A stretch of 64,000 nt of DNA from Leucoraja erinacea (taxonomy: Eukaryota): NCBI RefSeq assembly GCF_028641065.1, contig NC_073402.1, positions 28,768,001 through 28,832,000 on the forward strand, given 5' to 3'. Position 1 is the first letter of the stretch; each line of letters begins with the position of its first letter. The notes beneath the pieces are model-generated. The model had not been told where the DNA came from. It searched no databases and saw nothing but the letters and a program-made list of their open reading frames with translations. Positions 21,731-44,770 of the stretch are shown here, in pieces. Position numbers and translations under genes: made by a program.

Positions 21731-22030
21731 ATGGCCAAACCTGCCTCTGATCTCTTCAACTCTAAGTGTGCGGCCGGTTCGAATGGGTGCAAACCCAAGG
21801 ATTCCTCCACCTGGTCTCAGATCCGGACAGAAAACATCCCCAACGATTTCACGGGCGGGGCGGGCTGCGACAGTGCCTCGCCTCTCTCGAGAGCCCCCGT
21901 GGCCGGCAAACCTCACGCTGAGCTTCTCGCCAGCTCCCCAGCGGCAGCCGTGCTCACCGCCTGCCTCATAGTCCTGCTTTTCATCGGCCTCTTTAACCTC
22001 AAGAGAAGCAACATTCGTTCCAGGTTGGAG
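21731..22030 (+). CDS. TMCO2: TMCO2-like gene copy A, coding exon 1 (100 codons, includes the TM helix)
   Basis: Starts at gagaATGG and reads MAKPASDLF...WSQIRTENIPNDFT...AVLTACLIVLLFIGLFNLKRSNIRSRLE, followed by a phase-0 donor GAG|gtgagt. A hydrophobic helix followed by KRS resembles TMCO2. It lies at the syntenic position between RLF and ZMPSTE24. Confidence 0.8.
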
Positions 22031-22232
22031 GTGAGTTATTACAGAACGCGTCGTTCTCGCCGCTGCAGGGTTTGCCCTCGAGGCTACACAAAAATGCTGG
22101 AGAAACTCAGCGGGTGCAGCAGCATCTATGGAGCGAACGTTTCGGGCCGAAACCCTTCTTCAGACTAAAACCCTCGAGGCAGCGGCCTCACAGCGTCAGG
22201 GACCCCGGGTTCCATCCTGACCTCGGGGATGC

Positions 22233-22264
<32 letters not shown>

Positions 22265-25200
22265 GGGAGCTTGCCCGGGACCTCGCGGGTTTACTCCGGG
22301 GAGCACCGGTTTCCTTCCAGAGAGAGGTGTGTAGGGAGAGAGAACGAATGTATAGAGATGAGGAGTGTAGCGAGGAGAGTGGAGAGGAAGGAGTATATTG
22401 AGAGAAGGAGTAAATGCAAGGGCTATACAGAGAGAAGGATAGTAAGTATATAGACATGTAAGTTTGTGTGCTTGGGGAACTCAGGGGTAGATGTATAACA
22501 ATTTGCGTCGTAGGAGGGGTCCCAGGGAGAGCGCGCAAACTCCACACAGGCAGTACCCGAGGTCGGGATCGAACCCAGTCTGGCGCTGTGAGGAATTGAT
22601 AGCTTCCTTCTGTTCCTGGCAATAAATAAGACATTTACAAAACATAAGACAAACACAAAATGCTGGAGTAACTCAGCGGGACAGGCAGCATATCTGGAGA
22701 GAAGGAATGGGTGGTGTTTCGGGTCGAGACCCTTCTTCAGACTTAAAACTTCAAGGGACAGTGACGAAGTAATTCAGTGCGTCAGACAGCATATCTGGAG
22801 GACATGTTCTCCATAGATGCTGCCTGACCCGCTGAGTCACTCCAGCACTTAGTGTCTATCTTCGGTGTAAACCAGCATCTGCAGTTCCTTCCTGCACAGA
22901 TACAAACCCTTCAGACCCACACAGAACAGCGGCCTTCGATGACGGCAGATCTCAGCGGCACAATTGATGATCACAGCCTGCGCTTGCCCCCACCCCCCCA
23001 ACCCCCACACTATCCCAGTCCCACCTTCCCCACCTCACCGTTTCCCCGGCCAGTATAGACTCCCGCTTGGCAGGGGTCTTCCCACCGAGGGGCAGAATGA
23101 GGTGGGGGTCGCCTCATGCATCAACACGAGCCGCTGGAATGCAGGCAGGGACTCGACCAGTTTCCCCCAGAGTTAACCCCTTAAACACAGACACACAATG
23201 CTGGAGTAACTCAGAGTGCCAGGCAGCATCTCTGGAGAGAAGGAATGGGTGATGTTTCGGGTCGAGACCCTCCTTCAGACTGAGTCAGGGAGTGGGGCAT
23301 CCTGCACAAAATGTCGCTCCGTTTATCCTATATCAATACATTGAGAACGGCATGATTGTATTAATGTCAGCTCTTCTTTGACTGGATAGCATGAAAACAA
23401 AAGCTTTTCACCTTGGCACAACGTGATAAACCCAACTACAGTGGTGCAGCGGTAGAGCCAGTGTCCCAGGTTCGATCCTCACTGCCGGTGCTGTCTGCAC
23501 GGAGTTTTTGCTCGTTCTCCCCATGACCGCGTGGGTTTTCTCCGGGTGCTCCGGTTTCCACCCAAACTCCAAACACGTACAGGGTTTGTAGGTTAATTGG
23601 CTTCGGTAAAATTGTAGATGGTCCCTCGTGCGTGTATGAGTGCGCGGGGGGTCGCTGGTCGGCACGGACTCGGTGGGCCGAAGGTCCTGTAACTGCACCG
23701 TGTCTAAACTAAACTAAAAACGACGACACAATGCGATACGATAGAACTTTATGTATCCCAGGAGGGAAGTTGTTCTGGCAACAGTCATGAAACACAAGGC
23801 ACATAGAAACATGAAATTAAAGTCCAGGATTGAGGATGTGCAAAGATTGGGGGGGGGGGGGGGGGTGGGGGGGGGGGGAGAGGGGGAGGGAGGAGGGGGG
23901 GAAAGAAGGGGGGGAAGAGGGAGAAGAGGGAGAGGAAGGGGGGGTGAGAGAGAGGGAGGGAGGCGGTAGGGAGAGGGGGGGAAAGAAGGGGGGGGGGGGG
24001 GATGGTCGGCACGGACTCGGAAGGAGGGTATTTACGTTGTCTCTGTACTGTACACTGACAATGACAATTAAAATTGAATCTGAATCTGAATCTGAATGAG
24101 GGGGGAAGAGGGTAGGGGAGGGGGGCAGGTAGGGGAGGGGGGGGGGAGATGACGGGGGGGGGCAGGGAAGGGCCGAAGTCTACTCCCACCTAATTTCAGA
24201 AGGGTTTCTAGTTGCACAGTTGATGGTGATGCTGTTAACATGGTTCAAGTCAAGTCAAGCCAAGTCAATGGCTTTTATTTCTATAGCACATTTAAAAAAC
24301 AACACTCGTTGGCCAAAGTGCTTTACATTAGTTGAAGGGCTTGTTTGTGGGCTGGGCAGGTTTATACACCTGAGCCCTGCAGTCTGAGTGACTTCCTGGC
24401 CTTGGGGGTTGTGTGGGTGGGGGAGCGGCAAGGGAAACAAAGAGCCTCCTTAATCTCATGCAGCTCCGATGTCACTGGTTATCTTTCTCAACTGATTCAG
24501 CTTCACTGAGCCGGGCAGGCGGTTGTCAGCAAAGATCCCATAGCTATAGTTGTTTGAGAAGGAACTGCAGATGCTGGAAAATCGAAGGTAGACAAAAAGT
24601 GCTGGAGAAACTCAGCGGGAGCAGCAGCATCTATGGAGCGAAGGAAATAGGCAACGTTTCGGGACGAAACCCTTCAGGGTTTCGGCCCGAAACGTTACCT
24701 ATTTCCTTCCTGAAGGGCTTTGGCCCGAAACGTTACCTATTTCCTTCACTCCATAGCTGAAACCCTTCTCCAGACTGAGAATCAGGGGAGAGGGCGATGA
24801 GATATCGAAAGAGGAAACAAAGGAATGGTAGGATATTGGGTATGAATTCCTCATTCAGTAATTCAGATCCAGGGAAGGGCTTGGCAATAGCCAATAGGTG
24901 CAGGAGTAGGCCATTCGGCCCTTCGAGCCAGCACCGCCATTCAATGTGATCATGGCTGATCATCCCCAATCAGTACCCTGTTCCTGCCTTCTCCCCATAT
25001 CCCCTGCCTCAACTATCGTTAAGAGCCCTATCTAGCTCTCTCTTGAAAGCATCCAGAGAACCCGCCTCCACCGCCCTCTGAGGCAGAGAATTCCACAGAC
25101 TCACCACTCTCTGTGAGGAAAAGTGTTTCCTCGACTACGTTCTAAATGGCTTGCCCCATATTCTTAAACTGTGTGGCCCCTGGTTCTGGACTCCCCCAAC

Positions 25201-26004
25201 ATCGGGAACATGTTTCCTGCCTCTAGCGTGTCCAAGCCCTTAACAATCTTGGCGTGGGTGCGCTGACTGGACCTGTACAGTTGCCGTGGCGTGAGTTCTT
25301 CCTGCCAATCTCCACCTGCACTATCACACACGTCCTTTCCAATTAGCGTGATGTTTCCAAGTGTATGTGTGTGTTCATGTGGTTATAATGTGTGTACTTG
25401 AAGCTTTACAGCTCCACACACAATCTGTTCGAATGCCCTAGTGATGCACAGCGCCAACCAGGTCAAAGCAGACCCCCCAACCCCCCCTCTGCCCAAGGGC
25501 TACCCCCACCCCTCACAACACACAAGCTGTCCCACACACAAACACCCCGGGACTGGTTCACAGAGAACATAAAACAACACAATGTGCAGGAAACATAGAA
25601 ACATAGAAAATAGGTGCAGGAGTAGAGGCCATTCGGCACTTCGAGCCTGCACCGCCATTCAATATGATCATGTCTGATCATTCAACTCATCCTATACCTG
25701 CCTTCTCTCCATACCCCCTGATCCCTTTAGCCACAAGGGCCACATCTAACTCCCTCTTAAATATAGCCAATGAACTGTGTGGCCTCAACTACTTTCTGTG
25801 GCAGAGAATTCCACAGATTCACCACTCTCTGTGTAAAAAATGATTTTCTCGTCTCGGTCCTAAAAGACGTCCTCCTTATCCTTAAACTGTGACCCCCTGT
25901 CCTGGACTTCCCCAACATCGGGAGTAATCTTCCTGCATCTAGCCTGTCCAACCCCTTAAGAATTTAAGGAAGGAACTGTAGACGCTGGTTTAAACCGAAG
26001 ATAG

Positions 26005-26447
26005 ACATCTTCCCATCAGAACTGCCCCCTCCATCGACTCCTATAAGTCGAGACTTAAAACTCATCTTTACTCTCAAGCCTTTCTTGACGTCCTCTGAGT
26101 GAGGGCTATATGTATGTATTTATGTATGTACTTAATCTACGAACCACTGTTGTATAACGTTAGGTAGACAAAAATGCTGGAGAAACTCAGCGGGTGCAGC
26201 AGCATCTATGGAGCGAAGGAAATAGGCAATAGGAAATAGGCAACAGTTCCGGGTTTCGGCCCGAAACGTTACCTATTTCCTTCCTGAAGGGTTTCGGCCC
26301 GAAACGTTGCCTATTTCCTTCGCTCCATAGTTTCGGGCCAAAGCCCTTCTTCAGACTGTTAGTACCTCCACCAATGTAAAGCACTTTGGCCAACGAGAGT
26401 TGTTTCTTAAATGTGCTATAGACACAAAAGTGACTTGACTTGACTTG
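26005..26447 (+). mobile_element. L2 LINE 3' end interrupted by a Penelope-type palindrome
   Basis: LPIRTAPSIDSYKSRLKTHLYSQAF remnant, then TGTAAAGCACTTTGG...AAATGTGCTATA and a (GACTT)n tail. Confidence 0.7.
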
Positions 26448-28097
26448 AAAAAGCCGGAGTAACTCCGCGGGGACAGGCAGCCCACCTCTGGAGAGAAGGA
26501 AGGGGTGACGTTTCAGGTTGAGACCCTTCGAGCAGATGCGAAAAAATCGAAGGTAGACAAGAAATCTGGAGAAACTCAACGGGTTAAGCAGCGTCTATGG
26601 AGCGAAGGAAATAGGCGGATGGTCTTGGCCCGAAACGTTGCCTCTTTCCTTCGCTCCATAGATGCTGCTGCACCCGCTGAGTTTCTCCAGCATTTTTGTC
26701 TACAGCCTATTTTGTAATGTTTTCCAATCTATCACAGCCAACACATTACACTTAAGCCAACAATGACCAGCATGACCATTCTACATTTCCTTGTGCATTG
26801 CCCGTTTTGATCTATCGTTTTCACATCTTATCCTTCCATATCTCTACTTTCCTCTCTCCCTGACTCTCAGTCTCAGGAAGGGTCTCAACCCAACCCAACA
26901 CAGAGTCCTTCCGCTCAGCCAACAATGAACGATTTCCTTTGTACATTGTCTGTTTTGATCTGTCCTTTTCACACCTTAACCTTCCATATCTCTAGTCTCC
27001 TTCTCCCAAACCCCCAAGGGGCTTCGGCTTAGAAACGTTGCCTATTTCCTTCGCTCCATAGATGCTGCTGCACCCGCTGAGTTTCTCCAGCACTTTTGTC
27101 TGTATACCTTCGATGTTCCAGCATCTGCAGTTCCTTCTTAAATAGTTTGGTTTAGTTTAAGAAGATAGACACAAAATGCTGGAGTAACGAACTCAGCGGG
27201 TCAAGAAGCATCTCTGGAGATCACGGAGATGTGAAGTTTCGGGTCTAGCCCCTTCTTCAGGTAATAACGAGCCTACAGTCAGTTGGATACCCATTAAGGA
27301 ATCAGACACGTCTCCATAGATGCTGCTGCACCCGCTGAGTTTCTCCAACATTTTTGTCTACCTTCGATTTTCCAGCATCTGCAGTTCCTTCTTAAACATG
27401 GTTCAATTGGCTCTGACCTTCCTTCCATCGAGGGGATTTATCGCAGTCGCTGCCTCAAAAAGGCTGGCAGTATCATCAAAGACACACACCATCCTGGCCA
27501 CACACTCATCTCCCTGCTACCTTCAGGTAGAAGGAACAGGAGCCTGAAGACTGCAACAACCAGGTTCAGGAATAGCTACTTCCCCACAGCCACCAGGCTA
27601 TTAAACCTGGCTCGGTCAAAACTCTGATTATTAATAACCCATTTTCTGTTATTTGCACTTGATCAGTTTATTAATTCATGTGTGTGTATATATTTATATT
27701 ATGGTATATGGACACACTGATCTGTTTTGGAGTAAATGCCTACTATGTTCTGTGTGCTGAAGCAAAGCAAGAATTTCATTGTCCTATACAGGGACACATA
27801 GAAACATAGAAATTAGGTGCAGGAGTAGGCCATTCGGCCCTTCGAACCTGCACCGCCATTCAATATGATCATGGCTGATCATCCAACTCAGTATCCCGTA
27901 CCTGCCTTCTCTCCGTACCCCCTGATCCCCTTAGCCACAAGGGCCACATCTAACTCCCTCTTAAATATAGCCAACGAACTGGCCTCAACTACCCTCTGTG
28001 GCAGAGAGTTCCAGAGATTCACCACTCTCTGTGTGAACATGACAATAAACTCACTTGAACTTGAACCTTCTTGTTTTTTTCTTGTTTTTTTTCTTAG

Positions 28098-28448
28098 ATG
28101 CTCTGTAAGAAGTTTACACATTTCAGCTGGAGGTTGTTGGCTTGTGGCAGCAACGCCAATAAGGCTCTATCCGAGAGGGATGTCCACTGCTTGTGCAGAG
28201 AGATATTTGCCCAGGAGAAGCTGGCGAAGAGGCTGCGGGTGGTGGAAAGCAAGCTGATGGCGGTGGAAGATATCGTGGTGTATGTTCTGGATCAGCTGAG
28301 CGTGCAGCGAGCCGTGCAGCAGCCCCCGCAACACTGCAAGTACACTTGCTGCCAATGTCGAGACGGCTCCAGGTCGGGCTCCCCCTTCACAGAGTACGAG
28401 CGAGGGAGCCCCGTGTTACGCACCACCGTGCGGAGATGGGAATATTAA
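28098..28448 (+). CDS. TMCO2: TMCO2-like gene copy A, coding exon 2 (coiled coil + Cys motif; spliced protein 216 aa)
   Basis: Polypyrimidine tract and ttag| acceptor in phase 0. IFAQEKLAKRLRVVESKLMAVEDIV resembles recalled human TMCO2 [24 protein letters not shown]. Also YTCCQC motif, TAA stop and AATAAA at 28494-28499. Confidence 0.8.
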   Translation: MLCKKFTHFSWRLLACGSNANKALSERDVHCLCREIFAQEKLAKRLRVVESKLMAVEDIVVYVLDQLSVQRAVQQPPQHCKYTCCQCRDGSRSGSPFTEYERGSPVLRTTVRRWEY

Positions 28449-28914
28449 CCCCCCCCCCCCCCTCCCCACCCACCCAAACGTTGTTCCAGAATGAATAAAA
28501 TGTGAACGGAAAATGCGCTGCCCCCCTCCGTCTGTGTGATCTCTGCTGCCTGGAGGCTGATGGAGTTTTTGTTTAGTTCATAAGACATAGAAACATAGAA
28601 ATTAGGTGCAGGAGTAGGCCATTCGGCCCTTCGAGCCTGCACCGCCATTCAATATGATCATGGCTGATCATCCAACTCAGTATCCCGTACCTGCCTTCTC
28701 TCCATACCCCCTGATCCCCTTAGCCACAAGGGCCACATCTAACTCCCTCTTAAATATAGCCAATGAACTGGCCTCAACTACCCTCTGTGGCAGAGAGTTC
28801 CAGAGATTCACCACTCTCTGTGTGAAAATGTACATGTATCGGGAAATGACATGTATCGGCCAGGATTCTGCTAGCACGCTGTAACTGCGTTCGAGAGAGG
28901 CAATGATATGGCCA

Positions 28915-29188
28915 CCCCTGTCCCACTGTACGAGTTCATTCCAAGAGCTCTCCCCGAGTTTGCCCTGATTCGAACTCGGAGATTTACGGTAATGGCCACT
29001 CGTCGGTACTCGGGGCTCTCGTGGACATTTTTTCATCATGTTGAAAAATCTTCACGAGTCTTCCCGTGCTGATCTGCCGTTAGCTCTGTGACGTCCCCGA
29101 GCTCCGACGTACCCGCTACGCTCATTCTCCGTGCTTACCACGAGTTTGATTTTTTTTTAAACTCGGGAGAGCTCTTGGAATGATCTCA
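28915..29188. mobile_element. Harbinger-type MITE, right end truncated
   Basis: CCCCTGTCCCACTGTACGAGTTCATTCCAAGAGCTCTCCC...GGGAGAGCTCTTGGAATGA inverted repeat. Confidence 0.7.
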
Positions 29189-29680
29189 TGGAGCAGAAAT
29201 AGGCCATTCGGCCCATCAAGTCTACTCCGCCATTCAATCATGGCTGATCTATCTCTCCCTCCTCACCCCATTCTCATGCCTTCTCCCCATAACCCCTGAC
29301 ACCCGTACTAATCAAGAATCTATCTATCTCTGCCTCCATTGACTTGGCTCTCCACAGCCTTCTGTGGCAAATAATTCCATAGATTCACCACCATCTGATT
29401 AAATAAATTCCTCCTCATCTCCTTCCCAAAGGAACGTGACATCCTTTAATTCTGAGGCTGTGCCCACTGTTCATAGACTCTCCCACCAGTGGAAACATCC
29501 TCTCCACATCCACTCTATCCAGGCCTTTCACTATTCGGTAAGTTTCAATGAGGTGCCCACTCATCCTTCTTAACTCCAGCGAGTACGAGTAATATGTTGA
29601 CCCAGTAAACATAGATAGTTTAGTAATAATCGTATAAGATAGCCAGTAAAGATACATCAGCCATGATTGAATGGCGGAAT

Positions 29681-30218
29681 AGGGTGATTTCACCAAATGT
29701 CAAATGAGCGTAGATCCCCCCTCACGTGACCGAAAAATTTAACTGGAGGACATATGTCAGATCGGTACATGTAAGTGAATGGGGAAAGACGCACTTTCAC
29801 ACCCGTTAAAAACATGGAAAACGGCCGATTTTTGAGCTGAAATTTTCTGTGCCAGTCGGGGTGACCGTGAAGCACAGCGACCTAAATTTTCAGGCAAAAA
29901 AAAAGATAGAAAGTGAGGTAATTACAAGAGGGAACTGAAGGTAGAAAGCGGCGGAAGTGAACAGCTGACAATTGCCGTGGAGATTTTAAGATCCAAAATA
30001 TCGGGAATTATCGCGTTTGCTCGCTGAATTTCATCAAAACTAAGGCATTATTAACTTAGTTTTGATGAAATTCAGCGTTTTCCATGTTTTTAACGGGTGT
30101 GAAAGTGGGTGTTTCCCCATTCACTAATATGTACCGAACTGACATATGTCCTCCAGTTAAAAATTTCGGTCACGTGAGGGGGGATCTACGCTCATTTGAC
30201 CTTTGGTGAAATCACCCT
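29681..30218. mobile_element. Long-TIR non-autonomous DNA transposon with AT target duplication (ISL2EU/PIF-like)
   Basis: About 140-bp TIRs AGGGTGATTTCACCAAA...TTTGGTGAAATCACCCT. It splits a CR1 tail as GGAAT|element|ATAGAC, implying an AT TSD. Confidence 0.75.
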
Positions 30219-33533: not shown

Positions 33534-33561
33534 CTGAAGAAGGGTCTCGACCCGAAACGTC
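33534..33561 (+). ncRNA. Minimal hammerhead-ribozyme-like core in a Penelope-type terminal repeat (representative of many copies)
   Basis: CUGAAGA-A-GGGU(CUCG)ACCC-GAAAC-GUC, with palindromic ACGU in place of helix III. Other copies occur at 10566(+), 11148(+), 53705(+), 9242-9269(-), 22137-22163(-) and 22716-22740(-). Confidence 0.55.
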
Positions 33562-35174
33562 ACCCATTCCTTGTGTACGAATGAACTGCAGATTTAAACC
33601 GAATATAGGCACAAAAAGCTGGAGTAACTCAGCGGAACAGGCAACGTCTCTGCCCCAGAGGGCGGTGGAGGCAGGTTCTCTGGATGCTTTCAAAAGAGGG
33701 CTAGATAGGGCTCCTAAATATAGCGGAGTCAGAGGATATGGGGAGAAGCAGGAACGGGGTACTGATTGGGGATGATCAGCCGTGATCACATTGAATGGCG
33801 GTGCTGGCTCGAAGGGCCGAATGGCCTACTCCTGCACCATGTCTATCTCTGGAGCCATGCCCTCCCTCCAGAGATGCTGCCTGTCCCGCTGAGCTACTCC
33901 AGCACGTTGTGTCTATCACTGGAAGGGATGTAAGGGGTTTGTGTGGTGGTCTGGGCTGCCCACATTTCGCTGCTCTGAACTGTAGACTTTACTTAAACCG
34001 AAGGTAGACAAAAATGCTGGAGAAACTCAGCGGGTGCAGCAGCATCTATGGAGCGAAGGGAATAGGTGACGTTTCGGGCCGAAACCCTTCCTCAGACTGA
34101 TGGAACGATTCCAGCGTCTGCAGTTCCTTCTTGATTACTTAAACCGAGGTTGGACACAAAAAACTAGAGTGCGGATAGATACGTGATAAGGGAATAATGT
34201 TTAGTGCCAATTCAATGTGATACTAAATGCTAAATGCTAGGGAGATGCTAAATGCATTTCGTTGTCTCTGTACTGTACACTGACAATGACAATTAAAATT
34301 GAATCTGAATCTGGTACTTGTGCATGGTGAAAAAATGTAGATAGCCTTCGCTCCTTCGCTGTCGGATTCGCTGTCGGATGGAATAGACTAATCAACGGGG
34401 CAGCAGCACAGAGAAAGGCTCAACGTGAGCAAACCCTAGGAAGGAAATAGCAGTTTCGGAATAATACGTGGGTCCAGCTGTGGAAGGTAGACAAAAAGTG
34501 CTCTGGAGCCAAAGGGTAGTTGAGGCCAGTCAGGCGGGATGCCCTTGCAGCATCTATGGAGAGAAGGCAGGTAGGAACTAGGCAACGAATGGCGGTTCGG
34601 GCCGAAACCCTTCCTACTCCTGAAGGAAATTTCTAGGTTTCTAACGTTTCGGAAATAGTTTTCGAAAACCCTTCAGGAAGGAGGAAATTTCGGGTAACGT
34701 TAGGTCGTTTCGGGCCGAAACCCAAGGGGTTTCGGCCCGAAACGTTGCCTATTTCCTTCGCTCCATAGATGCTGCTGCACCCGCTGAGTTTCTCCAGCAT
34801 TTTTGTCTACCTTCGATTTTCCAGCATCTGCAGTTCCTTCTTAAACAAAGTACATGTGGATCCTGCCACTCACTAATCCTTGCAATTCCACAAGGGGGGT
34901 GGGGGGGGGGGGGGGGGGGGGGGGGGTGAGATGAGATGACAGCGAGTCCTCCCTCAGAATGGCAATGAACAGGTCTGCTCTCCATTCGTACCCAGGGCCG
35001 GATGAGTGATGTATTCAGTCGAGCTTGCAAACAAAAGATTGCAACATTTCAGTCCCGGGACCCGAGCAAGCTGCGCGCCTTTGTTCCCTGCCAGCCACCA
35101 ATTATGTACATAGTCGTTACCTTGCAAACACATAAATACTTGGTGATGGCCAAAACTACTTCAAAAATGAAAAG

Positions 35175-35209
<35 letters not shown>

Positions 35210-36344
35210 GGAATAAACCCACACTCAGCCGCGGCTGAATCCCCCAATATATTTTTGCAACTTCTCAAGTCTTGTATCTCTAAAATGGGTAAACAGACAG
35301 AGGAGGGAGGCAGGCTTGTCCCGGGCCTGACCTGGGTGACATTAGGAGCGGGGACGACAGCTGTGACTGAGAAGGCAACCCCTTATCCCTCACGCTGACA
35401 GGCAGCTTTGGACGGGTTCCACGCCTCCCCGCCCCCCCCCTCCCCGTGTCATTCTGAAGAAAGAGCCTTCACATCATTCACCAGTCTCCGCGCCGGCGAT
35501 GTGAACCAACGCGGAGTGAATGGACGTTGGCCCGGGCCAGAGGCGGGTAAAAGGGGGCCACTATTCCCCAGCACCAGCGGCCTCCTGTACCCTTGCTCAC
35601 AGTCCCTTCCAAACCTCACCGCAGATACATCGTAAACATCGTCTCATGGTGCAGTTTGCTGAGGGATTGCCGCAACTGGCCCCGTTTATGAATCAGTTAC
35701 AAGTGGGAGTTGGGGAGGGGCAGGCTGGGGGGGGGGGGGTGGGGGGGGGGGGGGGGGAAGGGAGGAGGGGGGGGGGGGGGGGGGGGGGGAGGAGAGGGAG
35801 GGGGGGGGGGGAAAAATTAGGCACCGACCCTACTCCCTCCTTCACTCACTTCTCTTTGTCAGCAAGTGAGTCTAGCCACCAGTGTGTGTCTGTGTGTGTG
35901 TACATGCACTGTGTCCATGTGCGCCTTTATAGGTGCATTAGTGCCCAAGGGGTGAGGACAGGTGCGCATACATGTGTAGATGTGTGCGGTTTGCACATGC
36001 ACAAGTGTGCAGAAGTGTTCTCGTGTGTGTTTTTGTGTGCATGTGCGTGTGTTCGTGTGCGTGTGGCACAGGTCAGGACTTTATATGTGTGTGTGTGCAT
36101 GTGTGTGATATGTTCTCGATGTGTACATTGCATTGGGTGCATAGTTTGACGCAGAAACAAAGAACTGCAGATGCTGGTTGATACTAAAGATAGACACAAA
36201 GTGCTGGAATAACCCAGTGGGTTAGGCAGCATCTCTGGAGGCAAAAGATGCAGAGACGCTGCCTGACCCGCTGAGTTACTCCATCACTTTGTGTCTACGT
36301 TTTATGTAGATTTACGCACAAGCATGTGTCAATGTATAACATAT

Positions 36345-36970
36345 ATGGAATGTTAGCCTTCATAACAAGAGGATTTCAGTATAGGAGTAAAGAAGTTCTT
36401 CTGCAGTTGTATAAGGCTCTGGTGAGACCACATCTGGAGGATTGTGTACAGTTTTGGTCTACTAATTTGAGGGGGGACATCCTTGTGATTGAGGCAGTGC
36501 AGCGTAGGGTCACGAGATTGATCCCTGGGATGGGGGGACTGTCATATGAGGAAAGATTGAAAAGACTAGGCTTGTATTCACTGGATTTTAGAAGGATGAG
36601 GGGGAATCTTATAGAAACATATCAAATTATAAAAGGACTGGGCAGGAAAAATGTTCCCAATGTTGGGCGAGTCCAGAACCAGGAGCCACAGTCTTAGAAT
36701 AAAGAAGAGGTCTTTTAAGACTGAGGTGAGAAATAACTTTTTCACCCAGTGAGTTATGAATTTGTGGAATTGCCTGCCACAGAGGGCAGTGGAGGCCAAA
36801 TCACTGGATGGATTTAAGAGAGAGTTAGATAGAGCTCTAGGGACTAGTGGAGTCAAGGGATATGGGGAGAAGGCAGGCACGGGTTATTGATTGGGGATGA
36901 TCACATTGAATGGCGGTGCTGGCTCGAAGGGCCGAATGGCCTCCTCCTGCACATATTTTCTATGTTTCTA
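36345..36970 (+). mobile_element. CR1 LINE 3' fragment
   Basis: GMLAFITRG...LYKALVRPHLEDCVQFWS followed by the CR1 tail. Confidence 0.9.
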
Positions 36971-38531
36971 AATGTATAACACTAAATGTATCAGACTGCA
37001 ACAACCAGGTTCAGGAATAGCTACTTCCCCACACCCGCCATGCTATTAAACCTGCCTCGGTCAAAACTCTGATTATTAATAACCCATTTTCTGTTATTTG
37101 CACTTGATCAGTTTATTTATTCATGTGTGTGTATATATTTATATCATGGTATATGGACACACTGATCTGTTCTGTAGTAAATGCCTACTATGTTCTGTTG
37201 TGCTGAAGCAAAGCAAGAATTTCATTGTCCCATACAGGGACACATGACAATAAACACACTTGGACTTGAACATGTATGTTTACGTGTGAGTGAGCATGCA
37301 TGTAGCGTGTTTATCTGTACAGTGTTTCCTGAGGTATCAGGTTGAATTGCCCCAAGGACAGCAGCAGAAACAGTAATGGCTTTGATTTCCTGCGCAGCCA
37401 ACACACCCCGTTCTGTTCACAGCAGCAGAAAACATATGTCCCTTCAGCGAGCCAAGCAATGTTAGAACAGGTGCCAAGAATGTGGTCAAAGAGTTTTGAT
37501 CTCGCTGGGAGAACATCAAAGTTGGTATCAGGCCATTATATGCCCAGTGTGTTCAGGCAGTGAGGCTTTGGCTCAGTGAATGCCTCTCTGTGTCATAAGG
37601 TCATAAGTGATAGGAGCAGAATTAGGCCACTCGGCCCATTGAGTCTACTCCGCCATTCAATCACGGCTGATCTATCTATCTCTCCCTCCCAACCTCATTC
37701 TCCTGCCTTCTCCCCATAACCCCTGACAGAAGTACTAATCAAGGATCTGTTTTAAGAAGGAACTGCAGATGCTGGAAAATCGAAGGTACACAAAAATGCT
37801 GGAGGAACTCAGCGGGTGCAGCAGCATCTATGGAGCGAAGGAAATAGGCAACTTTTCGGGCCGAAACCCTTCCGGGTTTCGGCCCGAAACGTTACCTATT
37901 TCCTTCCTGAAGGGTTTCGGCCCGAAACGTTGCCTATTTCCTTCGCTCCATAGATGCTGCTGCACCCGCTGAGTTTCTCCAGCATTTGTGTCTACCCTCA
38001 TCAAGAATCTGTCTATCTCTGCCTTAAAAATATCAATTGACTTGGCCTCCACAGCCTCTTTGGGCCTTTGTGTTTTCATTTTTTGGATTTGACATGCAGC
38101 GAGCAAACAGGCCCTTCGACCCATCAAGTCCTGCAATCACCTCACACACTAGCACTGTCCCGCACAGGAGGGACTATTTACCAATTTTACCGAAGCCAAT
38201 TAACCTACAACCTGCACGTCTTTGGAGTGTGGGAGGAAACCGGAGCACCCGGAGAAAACCCACATGGTCACAGGGAGAACGTGCAAACTCCGTACAGCCA
38301 GCACCCGTGGTCAGGATGGTGCTTGCAGGAACGGGGTCTAGGTACGTGGTGCTTGTAAGGCAGTAACTCTACCGCTGTGCCACTGTGCACGAGCCTTTAT
38401 GTCACAAAGGTCCACTGAAGATAGACAATAGACAATAGGTGCAGGAGTCGGCCATTTGGGCTCAGCGGTAGAGTTGCTGCCTTTCAGCGCCAGTCCCGGG
38501 TTCAATCCTGACCACGAGTGCTGTCTGTATG

Positions 38532-39140
38532 GACCCCGTTCCTGCCTTCTCCCCATATCCTCTGACTCCGCTACTTTTAAGAGCCCTATCTAGCTCTCTC
38601 TTGAAAGCATCCAGAGAAACTGCCTCCACCGCCCTCTGAGGCAGAGAATTCCACAGACTCACAACGCTCTGTGAGAAAAAGTGTTTCCTCGTCTCCGTTC
38701 TAAATGGCTTACTCCTTATTCTTAAACTGTGGCCCCTGGTTCTGGACTCCCCCAACACCGGGAACATGTTTCCTGCCTCTAGTGTGTCCAAACCCATAAC
38801 AATCTTATATGTTTCAATGAGATAACCTCTCATCCTTCTAAACTCCAAAGTGTACAAGCCCAGCTGCTCCATTCTCTCAGCATATGACAGTCCCGCCATC
38901 CCGGGAATTAACCTTGTAAACCTACGTTGCACTCCCTCAATAGCAAGAATGTCCTTCCTCAAATTAGGGGACCAAAACTGAACACAATACTCCAGGTGTG
39001 GTCTCATTAGGGCTCTGTACAACTGCAGAAGGACCTCTTTGCTCCTATATTCGATTCCTCTTGTTATAAAGGCCAACATGCCATTTTCATTCTTTACTGC
39101 CTGCTGTACCTGCATGCTTACTTTCATAGACTGATATACA
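38532..39140 (-). mobile_element. CR1 LINE 3' fragment directly upstream of TMCO2 copy B
   Basis: ORF 38462-39127(-): LYRALMRPHLEYCVQFWSP...SLWNSLPQRAVEA. Confidence 0.92.
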
Positions 39141-39344
39141 AGATGTTGGGGGGGAGGGAGGCTGGGGGCTGAAGATTTTAGTGTTGAGGGCAGTTGGGAG
39201 CAGAGGAGGCATCACAAGCAGTGTTGTTACCTCACAATGCTCTCCCCGTGAACACTGCCAGGGTCAGATGTACCCGGGCACAGTGTGGCCCATCCCTACC
39301 ACTGAGCACACTCATCTGCCACTCGCTCCTCTTCGCGACGCAGA

Positions 39345-39635
39345 ATGGCCGCACTCCTCTCCGAGTTCTTTTCCTCCAGGCGGCCGGCTCCCCCCGAGCA
39401 CTGCGAGACCACCGGGTGCCGAGCCTGGCAGCGGGTCCGGACAGAGACCATTCCTAATGACTTCACCAGCAAACCCTCTCGGCCCTGGTGCATACCGCAG
39501 GCTGTGCAGGAAAATGACCTCAGCTTCATCTTCAACAATGTTGTGGTCAGGGCCTTCCTGGTTGCCTGCCTCATCATCATGATATGTTTCTGCATTAACT
39601 ATCTGAAGAAAAGTCGGATTCAGAATACACTACTG
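39345..39635 (+). CDS. TMCO2: TMCO2-like gene copy B, coding exon 1 (97 codons, includes the TM helix)
   Basis: Starts at cagaATGG. WQRVRTETIPNDFT is shared with copy A. VVRAFLVACLIIMICFCINYLKKSRIQNTLL resembles recalled human KRSIQSIQKTLL. Phase-0 donor CTG|gttagt. Confidence 0.82.
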
Positions 39636-40669
39636 GTTAGTTGTGAAGACAAGGAAGATGTGGTGCTAAACTTGGCTCTTGCTTTTTGTTAAACATTAGT
39701 ACAACGTCGTCTGATTGTGTGTTTAGAGGGATGTTGGCCAAACATGGGGAAATAGAACCAGCTTAGATGGGCATCTTGGTCAGCATGGTCGAGTTGGGCC
39801 GAAGGGCCTGTTTCCATGCTGTATGACTATGTGGAAGATTAGATGGGGCAGTATGGATAAGTTAGACCGAAGGGCCTGCTTTCATGCTGTATTTAAGAAT
39901 AAGGAGTAAGCCATTTAGAACGGAGACGAGGAAACACTTTTTCTCACAGAGAGTGGTGAGTCTGTGGAATTCTCTGCCGGTGGAGGGCGGTGGAGGCCGG
40001 TTCTGTGGATGCTTTCAAGAGAGAGCTAGAAAAGATAGGGCTCTTAAAAATAGCAGAGTCAGGAGATATGGGGAGAAGGCAGGGAATGGGGTACTGATTG
40101 AGGCTGATCAGCCATGATCACGTTGAATGGAGGTGCTGGCTCGAAGGGCCGAATGGTCTGCTCCTGCACCTATTGTCTATTGACTATGTGGAAGATTAGA
40201 TGGGGCAGTATGGATAGGTTGGGCCGAAGGGCCTGTTTCCATGCTGTATGACTATGTGGAAGATTAGATGGGGCAACTTGGTCAGTATGGACGTGTTGGG
40301 CCGGTGCTCGTTTCCATGCTGAAAGATTATTTGGAAGCTTAGATTTTAAAAATCTGTTTTTTTTTGAAATCATTTGTTAGCTTAGATGGGACATCTTGGA
40401 CAAGATGGTCGCGTCAGACCAGAGGGCCTGTTTCGTGCTCTGTGACTCTATTTCGAGTCCAGGACACAAGGTCATAGGCTCAGGATGCAGGGTGTTCCAT
40501 TGTGAAAGCGAGATCAGGAGAAATCTCTGCACCCCCAACATTGGTGAACACATGCAACCCACTTCAGTGGCGTTTTTCCTTGGCTAAATGTCCAATGCTG
40601 TTTTGTACCACGTCCAGCCACACAAAGACTGTAAATTCCTCTTTTTTCAAGTTTTAATGTCTGCTCTCT

Positions 40670-41400
40670 CCGTTTTTTTTTTTTTTTTTTTTTTTAAAAT
40701 TATTTTTATTAGAAGCAATTGCACAAGAATAAAACATTCAGGCGCGTAAAATTGTACAATCGTTGTACAACTTCAATTTTGACCTTTAAACCTCAAAATG
40801 AAGGAAAAGGAAGAGAAAGAAGAAGAGAGAGAAAAAATGGAACTCCTAGAATTCCAAAGTAGTGTGGTCAAAGCGGGAATAAACATATAAAAGAGGGAAA
40901 GGAAAAAAGAAGAGAAGAAAAGGAAAGGGAAAAAAAGAAAAATGTGGAGTTGGAAACATAGACAATAGGTGCCAGGAGTAGGCCATTCAGCCCTTCGAGC
41001 CTGCACCGTCATTCATTGCGATCATCCAACTCAGTATCCTGTACCTGCCTTACCTCTCCCTACCCCCTGATTCCTTTAGCCACATCTAACTCCCTCTTAA
41101 ATATAGCCAATGAACTGTGGCCTCAACTACCTTCTGTGGCAGAGAATTCCACAGATATACCTGCCCCCTCACCCACCGCCCACCCCACCCAACCCATAGT
41201 TGGATTAAATCCAAAATTGCGTTGCACCATATGATCCTTGTAAGAATTCGGTAAAGGGTGCCCATGTCTTGAAAAATTGATCTGGATCTTCTCTCCGTTT
41301 TCTTCTTGAAGGCATTGACTGGTGCTAGGCTACCTTCCCAAATGGTCACCCATGGCATTGGTTGGACTAAGTCCAACACTCAATCTTGGATGGTGCAACA
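40670..41400 (-). mobile_element. L1/Tx1-type LINE 3' end with poly(A), interrupted by a CR1 piece
   Basis: Poly(T) at 40673-40695 on +. The minus-strand remnant DQFFKTWAPFTEFL resembles an L1 ORF2 C-terminus. Confidence 0.55.
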
Positions 41401-42954
41401 TGTCAGTCCATCCTTACTTTCGGTCGGGTTAGTTTGCGGAAAGGTCCAGACCCGAAGCGTGGTCTTGTCCATTCCCTCCGCAGATGGTCAAGAAGGAACT
41501 GCAGATGCTGGAGAATCGAAGGTAGACAAGATTGCTGGAGAAACTCAGCGGGTGCGGCAGCATCTATGGAGCGAAGGAAATAGGCAACGTTTCGGGACGA
41601 AACCCTTCCGGGTTTCGGCCCGAAACGTTACCTATTTCCCACCTGCCTATTTCCTTCGCTCCATAGATGCTGCCGCACCCGCTGAGTTTCTCCAGCAATC
41701 TTGTTCACCCTCCGCAGATGCTGCCTGGTGGCCCACTGAGTTCTTCCAGCAGAAGATAGACACAAAAAAAGCTGGAGCAAGTCAGCGGGTCCAGGCAGCA
41801 TCCCTGGAGAAAAGGAATAGGTGACGTTTCGGGTCGAGACCCTTCTGTGCGGGACTGAGAGTCGGGGGAAAGAGTAAGGAGATATATAGACAGTGATGTA
41901 GAGAGATGTTGTACAGATGAATGAAAGACATGCAAAAAAAGTAACAATGAGAAACAAAACAGGTTGTGGCTCCGTCAGGATCACAGATTAGTCTAGCTTA
42001 ATATAATTATTACTGTCTCATGTACCGAGATACAGTGAAAAGTTTCAATTTGTATGTCATCGAGTCAAGGAAAAGACAATTTCTCAAACGACAAAATAGA
42101 CAATAGGTGCAGGAGGAGGCCATTCGGCCCTTCGAGCCAGCACCGCCATTCACTGTGATCATGGCTGATCATCCCCAATCAGTACCCCGTTCCTGCCTTC
42201 TCCCCATATCCCCTGACTCCGCTATTTTTAAGAGCCCTATCTTTAACTCTCTCTTGAAAGCATCCAGAGAACCGGCCTCCACCGCCCTCTGAGGCAGAGA
42301 ATTCCACAGACCCACCACTCTCTGTGAGAAAAAGTGTTTCCTCGTCTCCGTTCTAAATGGCTTGCCCCTTATTCTTAAACTGTGGCCCCTGGTTCTGGAC
42401 TTCCCCCAACATCGGGAACATGTTTCCTGCCTCTAGTGTGTCCAAGCCCTTAACAATCTGCCTCGTAGTTCCAGGGACCAAAGTCCATCCAGATCTTTGG
42501 TGCTGCCTATGTGGCTTACACCATTCCCCCTGTGACAACTTGCGTTATCCCTCGGTGCTTAAGTTTCTTCCCACATTAAGGTTGGTTAGTTTAGTTTAAT
42601 TTATTGTCATGTATACCGAGGTACAGTGAAAAGCTTTTTTTTCTTGTGCGCTATCCAGTCAGCGGAAAGACTATATGTGATTACAGTCAAACCATCCACA
42701 GTGTTCAGAAGATACAGGATAAAGGGAATAACGTTTAGTGCAAGACAAAGTTCGGAAAAGTCCGATTAAAGGTAGCCCGAGGGTCTCCCAAGGAGGTAGA
42801 TGGTAGGTCAGGGCCACTCTCTAGTTGGCGAGAGGATGGTTCAGTTGCCTGATAACAGCTGGAAGGAAACTGACCCTGAATCTGGAGGTAGACAAAGATG
42901 CTGGAGAAAACTCAGCGGGTGAGGCAGCATCTATGGAGTGAAGGAATAGGTGAC

Positions 42955-43093
42955 TTCTTCTTCTTTCGTTTGACGTGCACAGCTTAAAGTTGTAGGCAAC
43001 TTGTTCTATTTGATCTTCTGTTTGTGCACGTCGAGTTGATTGCATTAATCGAAACAGGACGGACCACGTGAAGGTTGCAATCTTCCACCCCCC
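42955..43093 (-). mobile_element. Short ribozyme-headed SINE-like retroelement with (AAG)n tail and 10-bp TSD
   Basis: Flanked by the direct repeat AATAGGTGAC (42945-42954 and 43095-43104) inside a Penelope-type repeat. Minus strand: GGGG start, ribozyme, GACGTGCACA/TGTGCACGTC stem, tail AAACGAAAGAAGAAGAA. Confidence 0.8.
43038..43091 (-). ncRNA. Minimal HDV-like ribozyme, second copy with catalytic C->U substitution (probably inactive)
   Basis: Minus strand reads GGGGUGG-AA-GAUUGCA-ACC-UUCACGU-GGU-CCGUCCU-GU-UUCGA-UUAA-UGCAAUC, with a G1.U wobble. Position 43048 is U where the other copy has C. Confidence 0.72.
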
Positions 43094-44116
43094 AAATAGG
43101 TGACGTTTCGGGTCAAGACCCTTCCTCAATCTGGAGGTGTGCGTTTTCACAACTTGATGAGGATGTTGCCAGGACTTTAGTTGCCGAGCTGTAAGCGGAG
43201 GATTGGGCAGGTTAGGAGTTAATTCCTTGGAGTGCAGGAAGCTGAGCGGTGATCTTGTAGAGGAGTACAAAATCAGATAGGATCAATGCACAGTCTTGTA
43301 CCCAGGAGAGGGGAATCACGAACCAGAGCTCATCGGTTTAAGATAAGAGGGGAAATATTTAATTGGAACCCGAGATGCCCCTTTGTCTCTCAGATAGTGG
43401 TGGGTGCATGGACCGAGCTTCCAGATAGCAGGTAGTTGAAGTAGGTCCAGAAACAGATGCACAAGACACTTGAGGAAGAAAGGTTTAGAGGGCAATGGGC
43501 CAAATGCAGCTAAATAGGACTAGGTTAGAATGGGGCATCTGGATCGGCATAGACGCGTTGGGCCGAAGGGTCTGTTTCCCCGCTGTATGACTCTATGACA
43601 TGTTGAATCTCTGTAGTCTCCTGAAGAAGTTGAGGTGTTGGTGTTTTGATAGCTCTCTGTGAGCACGGTGGCGCAGCGGTAGAGTTGCTGCCTCACAGCG
43701 CCAGGGACCCGGGTTTGATCCTGACCTCGGCTGCTGTTGGTACAGAGTTTGAACGTTCGCCCTGTGACTGCGTGGGTTTCCTCCGGGTGCTCATGCTTCC
43801 TCCGAAATTCCAAAGAAGTGCGGGTTTGCAGGTTAATTGGCTTCTGTAAATTGTCCCTAGTGTGTAGGGTTAGACTTTAGAGGTACAGCATGGAAACAGG
43901 CCCTTCGGCCCACCGAGTCTGTGCCGAACAGCGATACTCCATACACTAACACCATGCTACACACTAGGGACAATTTTACAAACCTATACGTTTTTGGAGT
44001 GTGGGCCGAAACCAGAGCACCCAGAGAAAACGCACGCGGTCACAGGGAGAATGTTCAAACTCTATTCAGACAGCTCCCGTAGACAGGATCGACCATGGGT
44101 CTCTGGCACTGTAATA

Positions 44117-44323
44117 TACCCCTGTCCCACTTAGGAAACTTGAACGGAAACCTCTGGAGACTTTGCCAAGGTTTCCTTCCGGTTCCCAGAGGTTGCAGGT
44201 GGTTGCCGGAGGTTGCAGGTAGTGGAAGCAGGCAGAGAGACTGACAAAAACCTCTGGGAACCTTGGGTGTGGCACAAAGTCTCCAGAGGTTTCCATTCAG
44301 GTTTCCTAAGTGGGACAGGGGCA
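44117..44323. mobile_element. PIF/Harbinger-type MITE inserted in a SINE
   Basis: About 50-bp TIR CCCCTGTCCCACTTAGGAAAC...GTTTCCTAAGTGGGACAGGGG; TAA at both flanks splits the SINE motif CTGTAAGGCAGC. Confidence 0.8.
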
Positions 44324-44452
44324 TAAGGCAGCAATTCTACCGCTGCGACACAGTGCCGTCATAGAGCTAGTGTACGGGTGGTTGCTGGTTGGCGTGGACT
44401 CGGTGGGCTGAAGGGCCAGTTTCTAAACTAAACAGCGATGTGTTTCTTGCAG

Positions 44453-44770
44453 AAAATGTGGGAGAAATACGCCTGCATTTTGAAAATAGGGTCCTCCTCT
44501 AACAAAAAGTACCAGAAGAACGAGAAGAAGAGGAAAGAGATCAAACGTTTCCGCAGAGGGCTAGCCATCCAGGAGAAGATAATGCGGAAACTCCAGCAGA
44601 TGGAGATGAAGATCCGTGACATGGAGGACATGATCATGAAATTTGCAAAGAAGATGACCCGTCGTGTGACGGGCTCGGAGTGCACCAGCCGATCCTCGAG
44701 TTGTATCTGCTCACGGTGCCACACCCCGAGCGCCTTCAGCACAGAACCGGAATCCCACCATACAGTCTGA
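44453..44770 (+). CDS. TMCO2: TMCO2-like gene copy B, coding exon 2 (coiled coil + Cys motif; spliced protein 202 aa)
   Basis: Acceptor tttcttgcag|AAA in phase 0. Contains the coiled coil GLAIQEKIMRKLQQMEMKIRDMEDMI and CICSRCHTP, similar to recalled human CSCSDCQSP. Ends at TGA; possible variant poly(A) signal AGTAAA at 44889-44894. Confidence 0.82.
   Translation, partial: KMWEKYACILKIGSSSNKKYQKNEKKRKEIKRFRRGLAIQEKIMRKLQQMEMKIRDMEDMIMKFAKKMTRRVTGSECTSRSSSCICSRCHTPSAFSTEPESHHTV

What the first reader, a model, noticed from the sequence alone, without database searches (positions are those of the whole stretch)
21731..44770. Tandem duplication of a TMCO2-like gene between RLF and ZMPSTE24 in a probable elasmobranch
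SEEN: two intact two-exon ORFs (216 aa and 202 aa). Both have a phase-0 intron right after the TM helix, a shared N-terminal motif WxxxRTExIPNDFT, a QEK-led coiled coil and a C-terminal Cys cluster, but are otherwise very diverged. Copy B has a strongly basic insert (NKKYQKNEKKRKEIKRFRR). KNOWN: mammalian TMCO2 is a single-copy, testis/acrosome-associated gene at exactly this syntenic position. INFERENCE: TMCO2 predates the chondrichthyan split and was duplicated in this lineage, diverging rapidly as reproductive proteins often do. The ORF track breaks both genes, so automated annotation may miss them.
Basis: partly seen in the sequence, partly recalled or inferred. Interest (0 to 1): 0.7.

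Follow-up and report, generated by a model that had tools for sequence, protein, structure and literature searches.

The report
Ancient TMCO2 gene trio in skate
Two intact two-exon genes in this skate window, and a third copy just beyond it, are old relatives of the mammalian testis membrane-protein gene TMCO2; the two in the window already stand unnamed in public gene predictions, one has changed about five times faster than the other, and they likely act as membrane anchors in developing sperm.

Summary
Genes A (216 aa) and B (202 aa) are intact two-exon TMCO2-family genes between an RLF-type zinc-finger gene and ZMPSTE24. Both equal unnamed little-skate RefSeq proteins letter for letter, so annotation did not miss them.

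The duplication is old: A and B both occur in catshark and bamboo shark, and chimaera B groups with skate B (AU p=0.019). Only A is fast: the skate-catshark distance is 1.15 for A and 0.22 for B. B's basic stretch is conserved, not a new insert.

A third copy, C, lies just outside the window, after ZMPSTE24 and before KDM1A. Bamboo-shark RefSeq has an isoform joining A exon 1 to B exon 2.

B passes both Pfam TMCO2 and DUF5531, which I recall as TEX46 (unverified); C's exon 2 does not hit DUF5531. No junction was among the joints shown in seven runs of unknown tissue. The sperm role is inferred from mammals. The scan reported this cluster earlier in three notes on other cartilaginous-fish genomes. 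Verdict: new members of a known family, modest interest.

The parts
3..3434 (+). Last exon of an RLF/ZNF292-type C2H2 zinc-finger gene; left neighbour, taken as RLF from recall of its C-terminus and from position
   Evidence: 1143-codon open frame, stop at 3432-3434; weak zf-C2H2 hits below the cut-offs; the name RLF is recalled
21731..22030 (+). Gene A coding exon 1 (100 aa): low-confidence, likely disordered N-terminus with the W-x-Q/R-I/V-R-T-E motif, one TM helix (about residues 65-88), basic flank, phase-0 GT donor
   Evidence: equals the start of RefSeq P0014
22031..28097 (+). Gene A intron, 6067 nt, GT-AG, rich in repeats
28098..28448 (+). Gene A coding exon 2 (116 aa + stop): helix, QEK-led coiled-coil helix, Cys cluster with altered spacing
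   Evidence: PF15844 21 bits, E 4e-4, below the cut-off of 27; model helices 70-118 and 126-173
28494..28499 (+). AATAAA just after the stop of A; likely polyadenylation signal
   Evidence: sequence; use not shown
39345..39635 (+). Gene B coding exon 1 (97 aa): same motif, one TM helix (about residues 66-86), basic flank, phase-0 GT donor
   Evidence: equals the start of RefSeq P0015
39636..44452 (+). Gene B intron, 4817 nt, GT-AG, rich in repeats
44453..44770 (+). Gene B coding exon 2 (105 aa + stop): basic helix, QEK-led coiled-coil helix, CxCxxC motif; the most conserved part of the cluster
   Evidence: PF15844 40.9 bits (cut-off 27) and PF17671 26.8 bits (cut-off 25); 84-90% identical in four other cartilaginous fishes
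44889..44894 (+). AGTAAA, the only polyadenylation-like hexamer found within 330 nt after the stop of B
   Evidence: sequence; use not shown
50591..50698 (+). ZMPSTE24 coding exon 1; right neighbour; further exons follow to the window end and beyond. Gene C, the third family member, lies past ZMPSTE24 outside the window (L006:4293-4550 and L006:6231-6404, minus strand) and so has no row of its own
   Evidence: matches human CAAX prenyl protease 1 in PDB, E 8e-6; further exons by tblastn; gene C:

Best explanation
A and B are two intact, separately annotated TMCO2-family genes from a tandem duplication that is shared with sharks and likely older than the chimaera-elasmobranch split, and each encodes a predicted single-pass membrane protein that likely anchors a cytosolic coiled coil to a membrane of developing sperm. 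Shown: gene structures, homology, neighbours, orthologues, and unequal rates (A about five times faster than B). Predicted from sequence: an N-terminus outside or in the lumen, one TM helix with a basic C-terminal flank, then a cytosolic helix, a coiled-coil helix and a Cys-rich tail. Inferred from mammals: expression in spermatids, and a tethering role between a head membrane (acrosome, manchette or head-tail junction) and coiled-coil or cytoskeletal partners. The CxCxxC motif, kept from sharks to mammals, would bind a metal or carry lipid. B likely keeps the old, constrained role, while A was released and changed most on the ray/skate line. A third copy, C, on the far side of ZMPSTE24 makes this a three-gene cluster.
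For: Splice sites, frames and shuffles. Identity with RefSeq P0014 and P0015. Pfam PF15844 finds only these two places in G000. A profile of 5 chondrichthyan sequences returns 9 proteins at E<=0.001 among 1.84 billion, two of them named mammalian TMCO2. Profile-profile against 8 mammalian TMCO2: A 96.2%, E 2.5e-9, 154 columns; B 96.1%, E 2.9e-9, 58 columns. Tree: A clade 100/100, B clade with chimaera 98/99; A+elasmobranch B without chimaera rejected, p-AU 0.019. Distances 1.145 against 0.223. More positive charge after than before the TM in 17 of 17 sequences; the pattern CxCxxC in 12 of 17. A sturgeon gene model fuses a related exon 2 to ZMPSTE24, which implies the same neighbour. Mouse and human Tmco2 are testis-expressed (passages, PMC12917576, PMC6687282) and TMCO2 is listed among spermatocyte/spermatid proteins (passage, PMC10652042). 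Three contig sets (RNA is a guess) cover B exon 2 at low depth; one contig ends at the acceptor with one unmatched base, as a spliced form would (weak).
Against: No junction 22030^28098 or 39635^44453 was among the 15 joints shown in either lay (660 and 165 more not shown). B exon 1 had depth 0 in 3 of 4 runs and up to 0.5 in the fourth; the repeat-free bins of A's exons had depth up to 0.3 in 4 of 4 runs; tissues are unknown. Skate A itself scores 26.4 bits, under the Pfam cut-off of 27, and bamboo-shark A only 16.9; skate A has lost the CxCxxC spacing. No A orthologue from chimaera turned up in my searches. Orthology to mammalian TMCO2 is unresolved and the tree warns of long branches meeting. 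Tmco2 knockout male mice are fertile (passages, PMC12917576), so the mammalian role may be minor or redundant. The structure model is poor (pLDDT 57, pTM 0.28). B's strong conservation is not what one expects of a typical fast reproductive protein and could mean a role outside sperm.
Confidence: 0.7

Rival explanations
1. The cluster is the ancestral jawed-vertebrate source of both TMCO2 and TEX46. A, B and C arose before bony and cartilaginous fishes split; bony vertebrates kept different copies, and a later break moved the KDM1A-side copy away as TEX46. This is compatible with the best explanation and extends it.
For: B passes PF15844 and PF17671 (DUF5531) in 3 of 6 proteins with B exon 2 scanned (28.5, 31 and 27.4 bits against 25) and scores 22.9-23.8 in the other 3. 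B exon 2 is the only PF17671 match in G000. A coelacanth protein with the same N-terminal motif scores 50 bits on PF17671 and 17.8 on PF15844. C lies on the minus strand upstream of KDM1A on the plus strand. Papers list TEX46 with EPHB2/LACTBL1 in cattle, between EPHB2 and LUZP1 in a pig gene list, and under selection with KDM1A in goats (passages). Mouse TEX46 is 165 aa with a TM at 34-51, close to C's 143 aa with a TM at 22-42.
Against: DUF5531 = TEX46 and the exact human gene order are recalled; no call returned a TEX46 sequence. C exon 2 does not hit PF17671 at E<=0.1. The coelacanth protein scores higher against B (134) than against C (97) and its locus is unknown. A CDC50-family gene lies between C and KDM1A. 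C+coelacanth has support of only 55/14, and an all-chondrichthyan clade A+B+C is not rejected either (p 0.43). TM plus coiled-coil profiles can cross-match.
Confidence: 0.45
2. A and B work partly as one modular transcription unit. Read-through past A's polyadenylation signal would splice A exon 1 to B exon 2, so that two N-terminal/TM modules and two cytosolic modules are mixed; other first exons give TM-less forms.
For: Bamboo-shark RefSeq LOC122563531: isoforms X1 and X2 share their first 99 aa (A exon 1); X2 and X3 share their last 105 aa (B exon 2). Catshark A has two isoforms without the TM exon. In skate both introns are phase 0, and the A1-B2 join would be an open 205-aa frame over a 22.4-kb intron.
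Against: This is a gene-predictor product whose read support I could not see. Three species (two skates, catshark) have A and B as separate loci. A has its own AATAAA. No bamboo-shark B-exon-1 protein turned up, so the isoform may reflect a local loss or an assembly gap. Not tested with reads in skate.
Confidence: 0.3
3. A is a recent, batoid- or elasmobranch-specific duplicate of B that diverged in a burst.
For: No chimaera A was found here. The skate A branch is long (0.97). A+B is one side of a branch in the best tree, support 61/65.
Against: A is present in catshark and bamboo shark, which excludes a batoid origin. An origin inside elasmobranchs is rejected at p-AU 0.019. Shark A aligns with mammalian TMCO2 over 154 columns, more than B does.
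Confidence: 0.1
4. The genes have a somatic role, B for example as a basic membrane-tethered regulator, unrelated to sperm.
For: B is under strong constraint and has a net charge of about +19. B exon 2 is covered in three contig sets of unknown tissue.
Against: The exons were near silent in the 4 raw-read runs laid, B in 1 and A in 3 (1-6% of each run read). Mouse Tmco2 was undetectable in liver, muscle and fat (passage, PMC2696593).
Confidence: 0.15

Closest known systems
Mammalian TMCO2 (Pfam PF15844, TMCCDC2)
   Same: One TM helix with basic C-flank, QE-K/R-led coiled-coil helix, CxCxxC tail, similar size (178-185 aa), same neighbourhood (RLF, TMCO2 and ZMPSTE24 in one 435-kb human block, passage in PMC2921284; exact order recalled).
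   Different: Two tandem copies plus a third beyond ZMPSTE24; an N-terminal W-x-R-V-R motif that the 4 mammalian sequences lack; a basic helix before the coiled coil in B and C; expression and location in skate untested.
DUF5531 (Pfam PF17671), recalled as the TEX46 family
   Same: B and a coelacanth relative match the profile over the TM and coiled coil. TEX46 is a small single-TM spermatid protein (PMC10957234). C sits on the KDM1A side.
   Different: B scores higher on PF15844 than on PF17671; skate A and C exon 2 do not hit PF17671; no TEX46 sequence was compared; TEX46 is essential in mice whereas TMCO2 is dispensable.
RefSeq unnamed genes LOC129709904/LOC129709905 (Leucoraja erinacea), LOC116988320/LOC116988321 (Amblyraja radiata), LOC119977482/LOC119977490 (Scyliorhinus canicula), LOC122563531 (Chiloscyllium plagiosum; one isoform named TMCO2-like), LOC103179610 (Callorhinchus milii)
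   Same: The first pair is identical to A and B; the rest are orthologues.
   Different: Nearly all are unnamed; none of six such ids searched appears in the paper library.
TMCO5 and other tail-anchored TMCO proteins
   Same: Testis-expressed single-TM coiled-coil proteins; TMCO5 lies on the manchette (PMC6687282).
   Different: Order reversed: TMCO5 has its coiled coil before a C-terminal TM, while A and B have the TM first. No Pfam TMCO5 hit was listed.

Membership tests
TMCO2 family (PF15844) | Profile score at or over the curated cut-off of 27 bits, copy B | tested here: met
   Window B exon 2 40.9 bits; full-length B proteins 35.7-43.5 bits in 4 of 4
TMCO2 family (PF15844) | Profile score at or over the curated cut-off, copy A | tested here: inconclusive
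   Skate A 26.4 (under); orthologues 28.7 and 28.3 (over) and 16.9 (under); profile-profile 96.2% over 154 columns to mammalian TMCO2. Filed as a divergent TMCO2-like paralogue.
TMCO2 family (PF15844) | Single TM helix followed by a coiled-coil helix | tested here: met
   One hydropathy peak each; long helices 70-118 and 126-173 in the model of A; the coiled coil is inferred from the helix and the family match
TMCO2 family (PF15844) | C-terminal CxCxxC motif (seen in 4 of 4 mammalian sequences), copy B | tested here: met
   Present in 5 of 5 B sequences, in 2 of 2 shark A sequences and in C
TMCO2 family (PF15844) | C-terminal CxCxxC motif, skate copy A | tested here: not met
   Both skate A sequences keep four cysteines but with other spacing; lowers 'typical member', not homology
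TMCO2 family (PF15844) | Position between RLF and ZMPSTE24 | tested here: met
   ZMPSTE24 by PDB match; left neighbour is a C2H2 zinc-finger last exon, named RLF from recall
TMCO2 family (PF15844) | Testis/spermatid-specific expression | tested here: inconclusive
   Seven runs of unknown tissue laid, no junction among the joints shown; the catshark atlas supplement could not be read
TMCO2 family (PF15844) | One-to-one orthology of either copy to mammalian TMCO2 | tested here: inconclusive
   A+mammals p 0.105, B+mammals p 0.111, A+B support 61/65
DUF5531 (PF17671; recalled as TEX46) | Profile score at or over 25 bits, copy B | tested here: inconclusive
   Window exon 2 26.8; over the cut-off in 3 of 6 relatives; always lower than PF15844
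DUF5531 (PF17671; recalled as TEX46) | Profile score, copy C | tested here: not met
   No hit at E<=0.1 for either exon scanned separately; the spliced protein was not scanned. C is not filed as TEX46.
DUF5531 (PF17671; recalled as TEX46) | Position head-to-head upstream of KDM1A (recalled for mammalian TEX46) | tested here: inconclusive
   C is on the minus strand about 50 kb before a confirmed KDM1A exon on the plus strand, with a CDC50-family gene between
DUF5531 (PF17671; recalled as TEX46) | Direct similarity to named TEX46 sequences | not testable with these tools
   No search returned a named TEX46 protein

The most novel reading that the evidence does not exclude
The skate keeps the ancestral three-gene cluster from which two separately studied mammalian sperm genes, dispensable TMCO2 and essential TEX46, descend. 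The family would then be as old as jawed vertebrates, not mammal- or tetrapod-limited. The two tandem copies may also mix their phase-0 modules by read-through splicing (A exon 1 onto B exon 2), giving several membrane anchors from one locus.
Probability: 0.4. Interest if true: 0.6.

Novelty: new member of a known kind. Interest (0 to 1): 0.35.

Why it matters
A mouse knockout paper describes Tmco2 as having limited conservation across Mammalia (passage, PMC12917576), and TEX46 is described as conserved from amphibians to mammals (PMC10957234). Intact, strongly constrained relatives in sharks, skates and chimaera, and relatives in sturgeon and coelacanth, push the family back to early jawed vertebrates. 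They also point to the residues worth testing: the coiled-coil helix and CxCxxC. If TEX46 is a paralogue, redundancy becomes a testable reason why Tmco2-null mice are fertile (double knockout, rescue). The gain is evolutionary context for a little-studied gene: the genes were already predicted, and the scan has noted the cluster before.

Tried and rejected
Run search with B exon 2: no RNA holder listed; 9 of 24 rows hold part of the stretch.

Complex prediction of a B homodimer (residues 58-192): no answer, score 0.00, controls not folded.

Shared promoter words upstream of A and B (an 8-mer and a 9-mer; SOX-like and CRE-like words): best local match reached by 279 of 1000 shuffles and by 452 and 505 of 1308 local tiles; rejected as chance.

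DNA-level similarity of A and B: only a 31-nt match, so dN/dS between the copies was not attempted; coding DNA of orthologues was not at hand.

ESM Atlas for A and for the coelacanth protein: nothing at 0.9 or above. PDB sequence search: only weak Get1 coiled-coil matches, E about 0.01, taken as generic. No fold search was run because the model has pTM 0.28.

More copies in the window or the 200 kb after it: the profile found 5 frames of 7037, i.e. A, B and C only. DNA upstream of the window was not fetched, and family searches of G000 missed C, so further divergent copies elsewhere are not excluded.

Palmitoyl-thioesterase search to confirm the mammalian upstream neighbour: matches lie 11 Mb away, no help.

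Papers: TMCO2 36 papers, 30 listed, none on fishes by title; DUF5531 0; any two of TMCO2, TEX46, C1orf234, PF17671, PF15844, TMCCDC2 0; six gene ids 0; catshark testis search gave 4 unrelated papers; one search was badly framed and says nothing; one search gave a listing only and was not used. The supplement of PMC11979771, which holds catshark tissue expression and bears directly on the testis claim, could not be read.


Full report
Observation. Both genes are in the sequence as described. A is 21731-22030 plus 28098-28448 and B is 39345-39635 plus 44453-44770; the introns are GT-AG and phase 0, and the spliced frames give 216 and 202 aa. Each ATG has an in-frame stop upstream. A and B share 53 of 221 aligned columns. 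Their local score of 160 was not approached in 2000 shuffles (maximum 63), and each exon matches its counterpart. At DNA level only a 31-nt match remains. The left neighbour is a 1143-codon zinc-finger last exon that I name RLF from recall; the right neighbour matches human ZMPSTE24 in PDB.

Already predicted. The spliced proteins equal RefSeq P0014 and P0015 of Leucoraja erinacea (LOC129709904, LOC129709905) letter for letter, and Amblyraja radiata has the same pair. Annotation left them unnamed but did not miss them. These models agree on the exon joins, but they are predictions and not my own evidence of splicing.

Family. B exon 2 passes Pfam TMCCDC2 (40.9 bits, cut-off 27) and A exon 2 scores 21. 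Full-length skate A scores 26.4 and its orthologues 28.7, 28.3 and 16.9. In G000 the family rings only at these two exons. A profile of 5 chondrichthyan proteins found 9 proteins at E up to 0.001 among 1.84 billion: shark and skate copies, a coelacanth protein, a sturgeon protein, two named mammalian TMCO2 and one unnamed TMCO2-like fragment. Profile-profile comparison with 8 mammalian TMCO2 gave 96% for both copies, over 154 columns for A and 58 for B. A sturgeon gene model fuses a related exon 2 to ZMPSTE24, which implies the same neighbour in a bony fish.

Age and rates. A has orthologues in catshark and bamboo shark; B in catshark, bamboo shark (exon 2), electric ray and chimaera. In a 17-sequence tree A (100/100) and B with chimaera (98/99) are clades. 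Of my 34 stored proteins I left out the chimeric and TM-less isoforms, fragments, the sturgeon fusion model, the zinc-finger neighbour and redundant mammals. Forcing A with elasmobranch B, without chimaera B, is rejected (p-AU 0.019). The duplication therefore likely predates the chimaera split (roughly 420 million years, recalled). Deeper order is open: A+mammals p 0.105, B+mammals 0.111, B+sturgeons 0.15, B+coelacanth 0.26, C+B 0.38, A+B+C 0.43, and long branches meet. The skate-catshark distance is 1.145 for A and 0.223 for B; catshark-bamboo shark A is only 0.287, so most change in A lies on the branch to skates. B exon 2 is 85% identical between skate and chimaera. 'Rapid divergence' fits A, not B.

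Anatomy and mechanism. All 17 sequences have a main hydrophobic helix with more positive charge after it than before it, which by the positive-inside rule puts the C-terminal half in the cytosol. The model of A shows a low-confidence N-terminus, a helix running from the TM on (70-118), a second helix (126-173) and a low-confidence tail; overall confidence is poor. CxCxxC is present in all B, shark A, C and all four mammals, but not in skate A, coelacanth, sturgeon or paddlefish. The basic stretch of B is conserved and has counterparts in C, coelacanth and sturgeons, so A and mammals more likely lost it than B gained it. I infer membrane-anchored coiled-coil adaptors of spermatid head membranes. 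This rests on mammals: Tmco2 is testis-expressed, and knockout males are fertile (passages of PMC12917576; PMC6687282; PMC10652042; PMC2696593).

Expression here. In the lay on B, three contig sets whose RNA status is a guess cover exon 2 and its 3' flank at depth 3-8 with 0-1 differences. They do not cover exon 1, and one raw-read run from a related organism had none on the exon 2 bin. One contig ends at 44452 with one base unmatched, which fits a spliced form but is a single base. In the lay on A, 4 of 4 runs had depth up to 0.3 on the repeat-free exon bins. Neither junction was among the 15 joints shown per call; 660 and 165 were not shown because repeats crowd the tables. Tissues are unknown and only 1-6% of each raw run was read, so this neither shows nor excludes testis expression.

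Third copy. Led by earlier scan notes on other genomes, I searched the 200 kb after the window. A profile hit one more frame, on the minus strand after ZMPSTE24 (L006:4293-4550; E 5e-8). It has a phase-0 acceptor, and a TM exon with a phase-0 donor lies 1.7 kb upstream (L006:6231-6404), giving about 143 aa; the splice between them is inferred and the 5' end is uncertain. Exon 2 scores 19.2 bits on PF15844, under the cut-off, and its only other match in G000 is B exon 2. The order is RLF+, A+, B+, ZMPSTE24+, C-, CDC50-family gene-, KDM1A+, then a long coiled-coil exon that I take for LUZP1 from recall.

TEX46 link. B and the coelacanth protein match DUF5531, which I recall as TEX46; no call confirms this name. 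Papers place TEX46 near EPHB2, LACTBL1, LUZP1 and KDM1A only through gene lists (passages of PMC8446201, PMC8590244, PMC12538952). TEX46 is a 165-aa single-TM protein that moves to the manchette and the head base, and is needed for sperm head shape (passages and Discussion of PMC10957234; passages of PMC12435281, read for comparison). Against: C, the copy in the TEX46-like position, does not hit DUF5531 in either exon, and the coelacanth protein is closer to B. I put the link at about 0.45. I had the DUF5531-TEX46 idea before opening the notes; the cluster reading comes from them and is not independent support.

Mixed transcripts. Bamboo-shark RefSeq has one locus with isoform X1 = A1-A2, X2 = A1-B2 and X3 = another exon on B2. 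In skate the A1-B2 join would be in frame. Skates and catshark are annotated with two loci, so two genes remains the best reading, with possible read-through.

Literature and verdict. No paper in the library links TMCO2 with TEX46 or names six of these loci, and none of the 30 TMCO2 papers listed concerns fishes by title; subscription journals are not covered. Of PMC2921284 I saw one passage; of PMC11979771 the abstract and passages, its supplement being unreadable. The finding is real and extends a known family to cartilaginous fishes as an old, unequally evolving cluster. The genes were already predicted, and the scan had noted the cluster in other genomes. Interest 0.35; new members of a known kind.

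Noticed in passing
L006:4293-4550 and L006:6231-6404, minus strand (14-16 kb past the window end): Third TMCO2-family gene C, convergent with ZMPSTE24; about 143 aa; an acceptor-like site shortly before its first ATG suggests a further upstream exon.
   Followed up: yes
window 50698-50700: ZMPSTE24 exon 1 is followed by GG, not GT, at the expected donor, inside a G-rich run, while the next exon has a normal phase-0 acceptor at 53909; probably a consensus error in the assembly.
   Followed up: partly
window 3-200: The zinc-finger last exon begins with about 11 tandem copies of a 6-residue unit, in frame and of unknown age.
   Followed up: no
L007:6573-7013, minus strand: A CDC50/TMEM30-family exon between C and KDM1A (Pfam 32.9 bits). 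With a LUZP1-like gene nearby it may be a retained genome-duplication counterpart of the TMEM30A-FILIP1 and TMEM30C-FILIP1L pairs (recalled).
   Followed up: no
G000:C26:17650163-17671109: Palmitoyl-thioesterase exons occur twice in tandem, 11 Mb from this window, so the mammalian PPT1-RLF neighbourhood is not seen locally; whether they are PPT1 was not checked.
   Followed up: no
proteins P0007, P0008, P0019 (shark RefSeq isoforms): TM-less isoforms with short alternative first exons on A exon 2 or B exon 2; they would be soluble coiled-coil forms if real.
   Followed up: partly
window 21628-21700 and 39234-39238: SOX-like words twice and a CRE-like word upstream of A, one SOX-like word upstream of B; similarity of the two upstream regions is no better than chance.
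   Followed up: yes
window introns and intergenic DNA, e.g. 13334-13792, 36275-36694, 46831-47355: Many short interspersed repeats and broken frames that look like LINE reverse-transcriptase fragments (name recalled); they dominate read mapping here.
   Followed up: no
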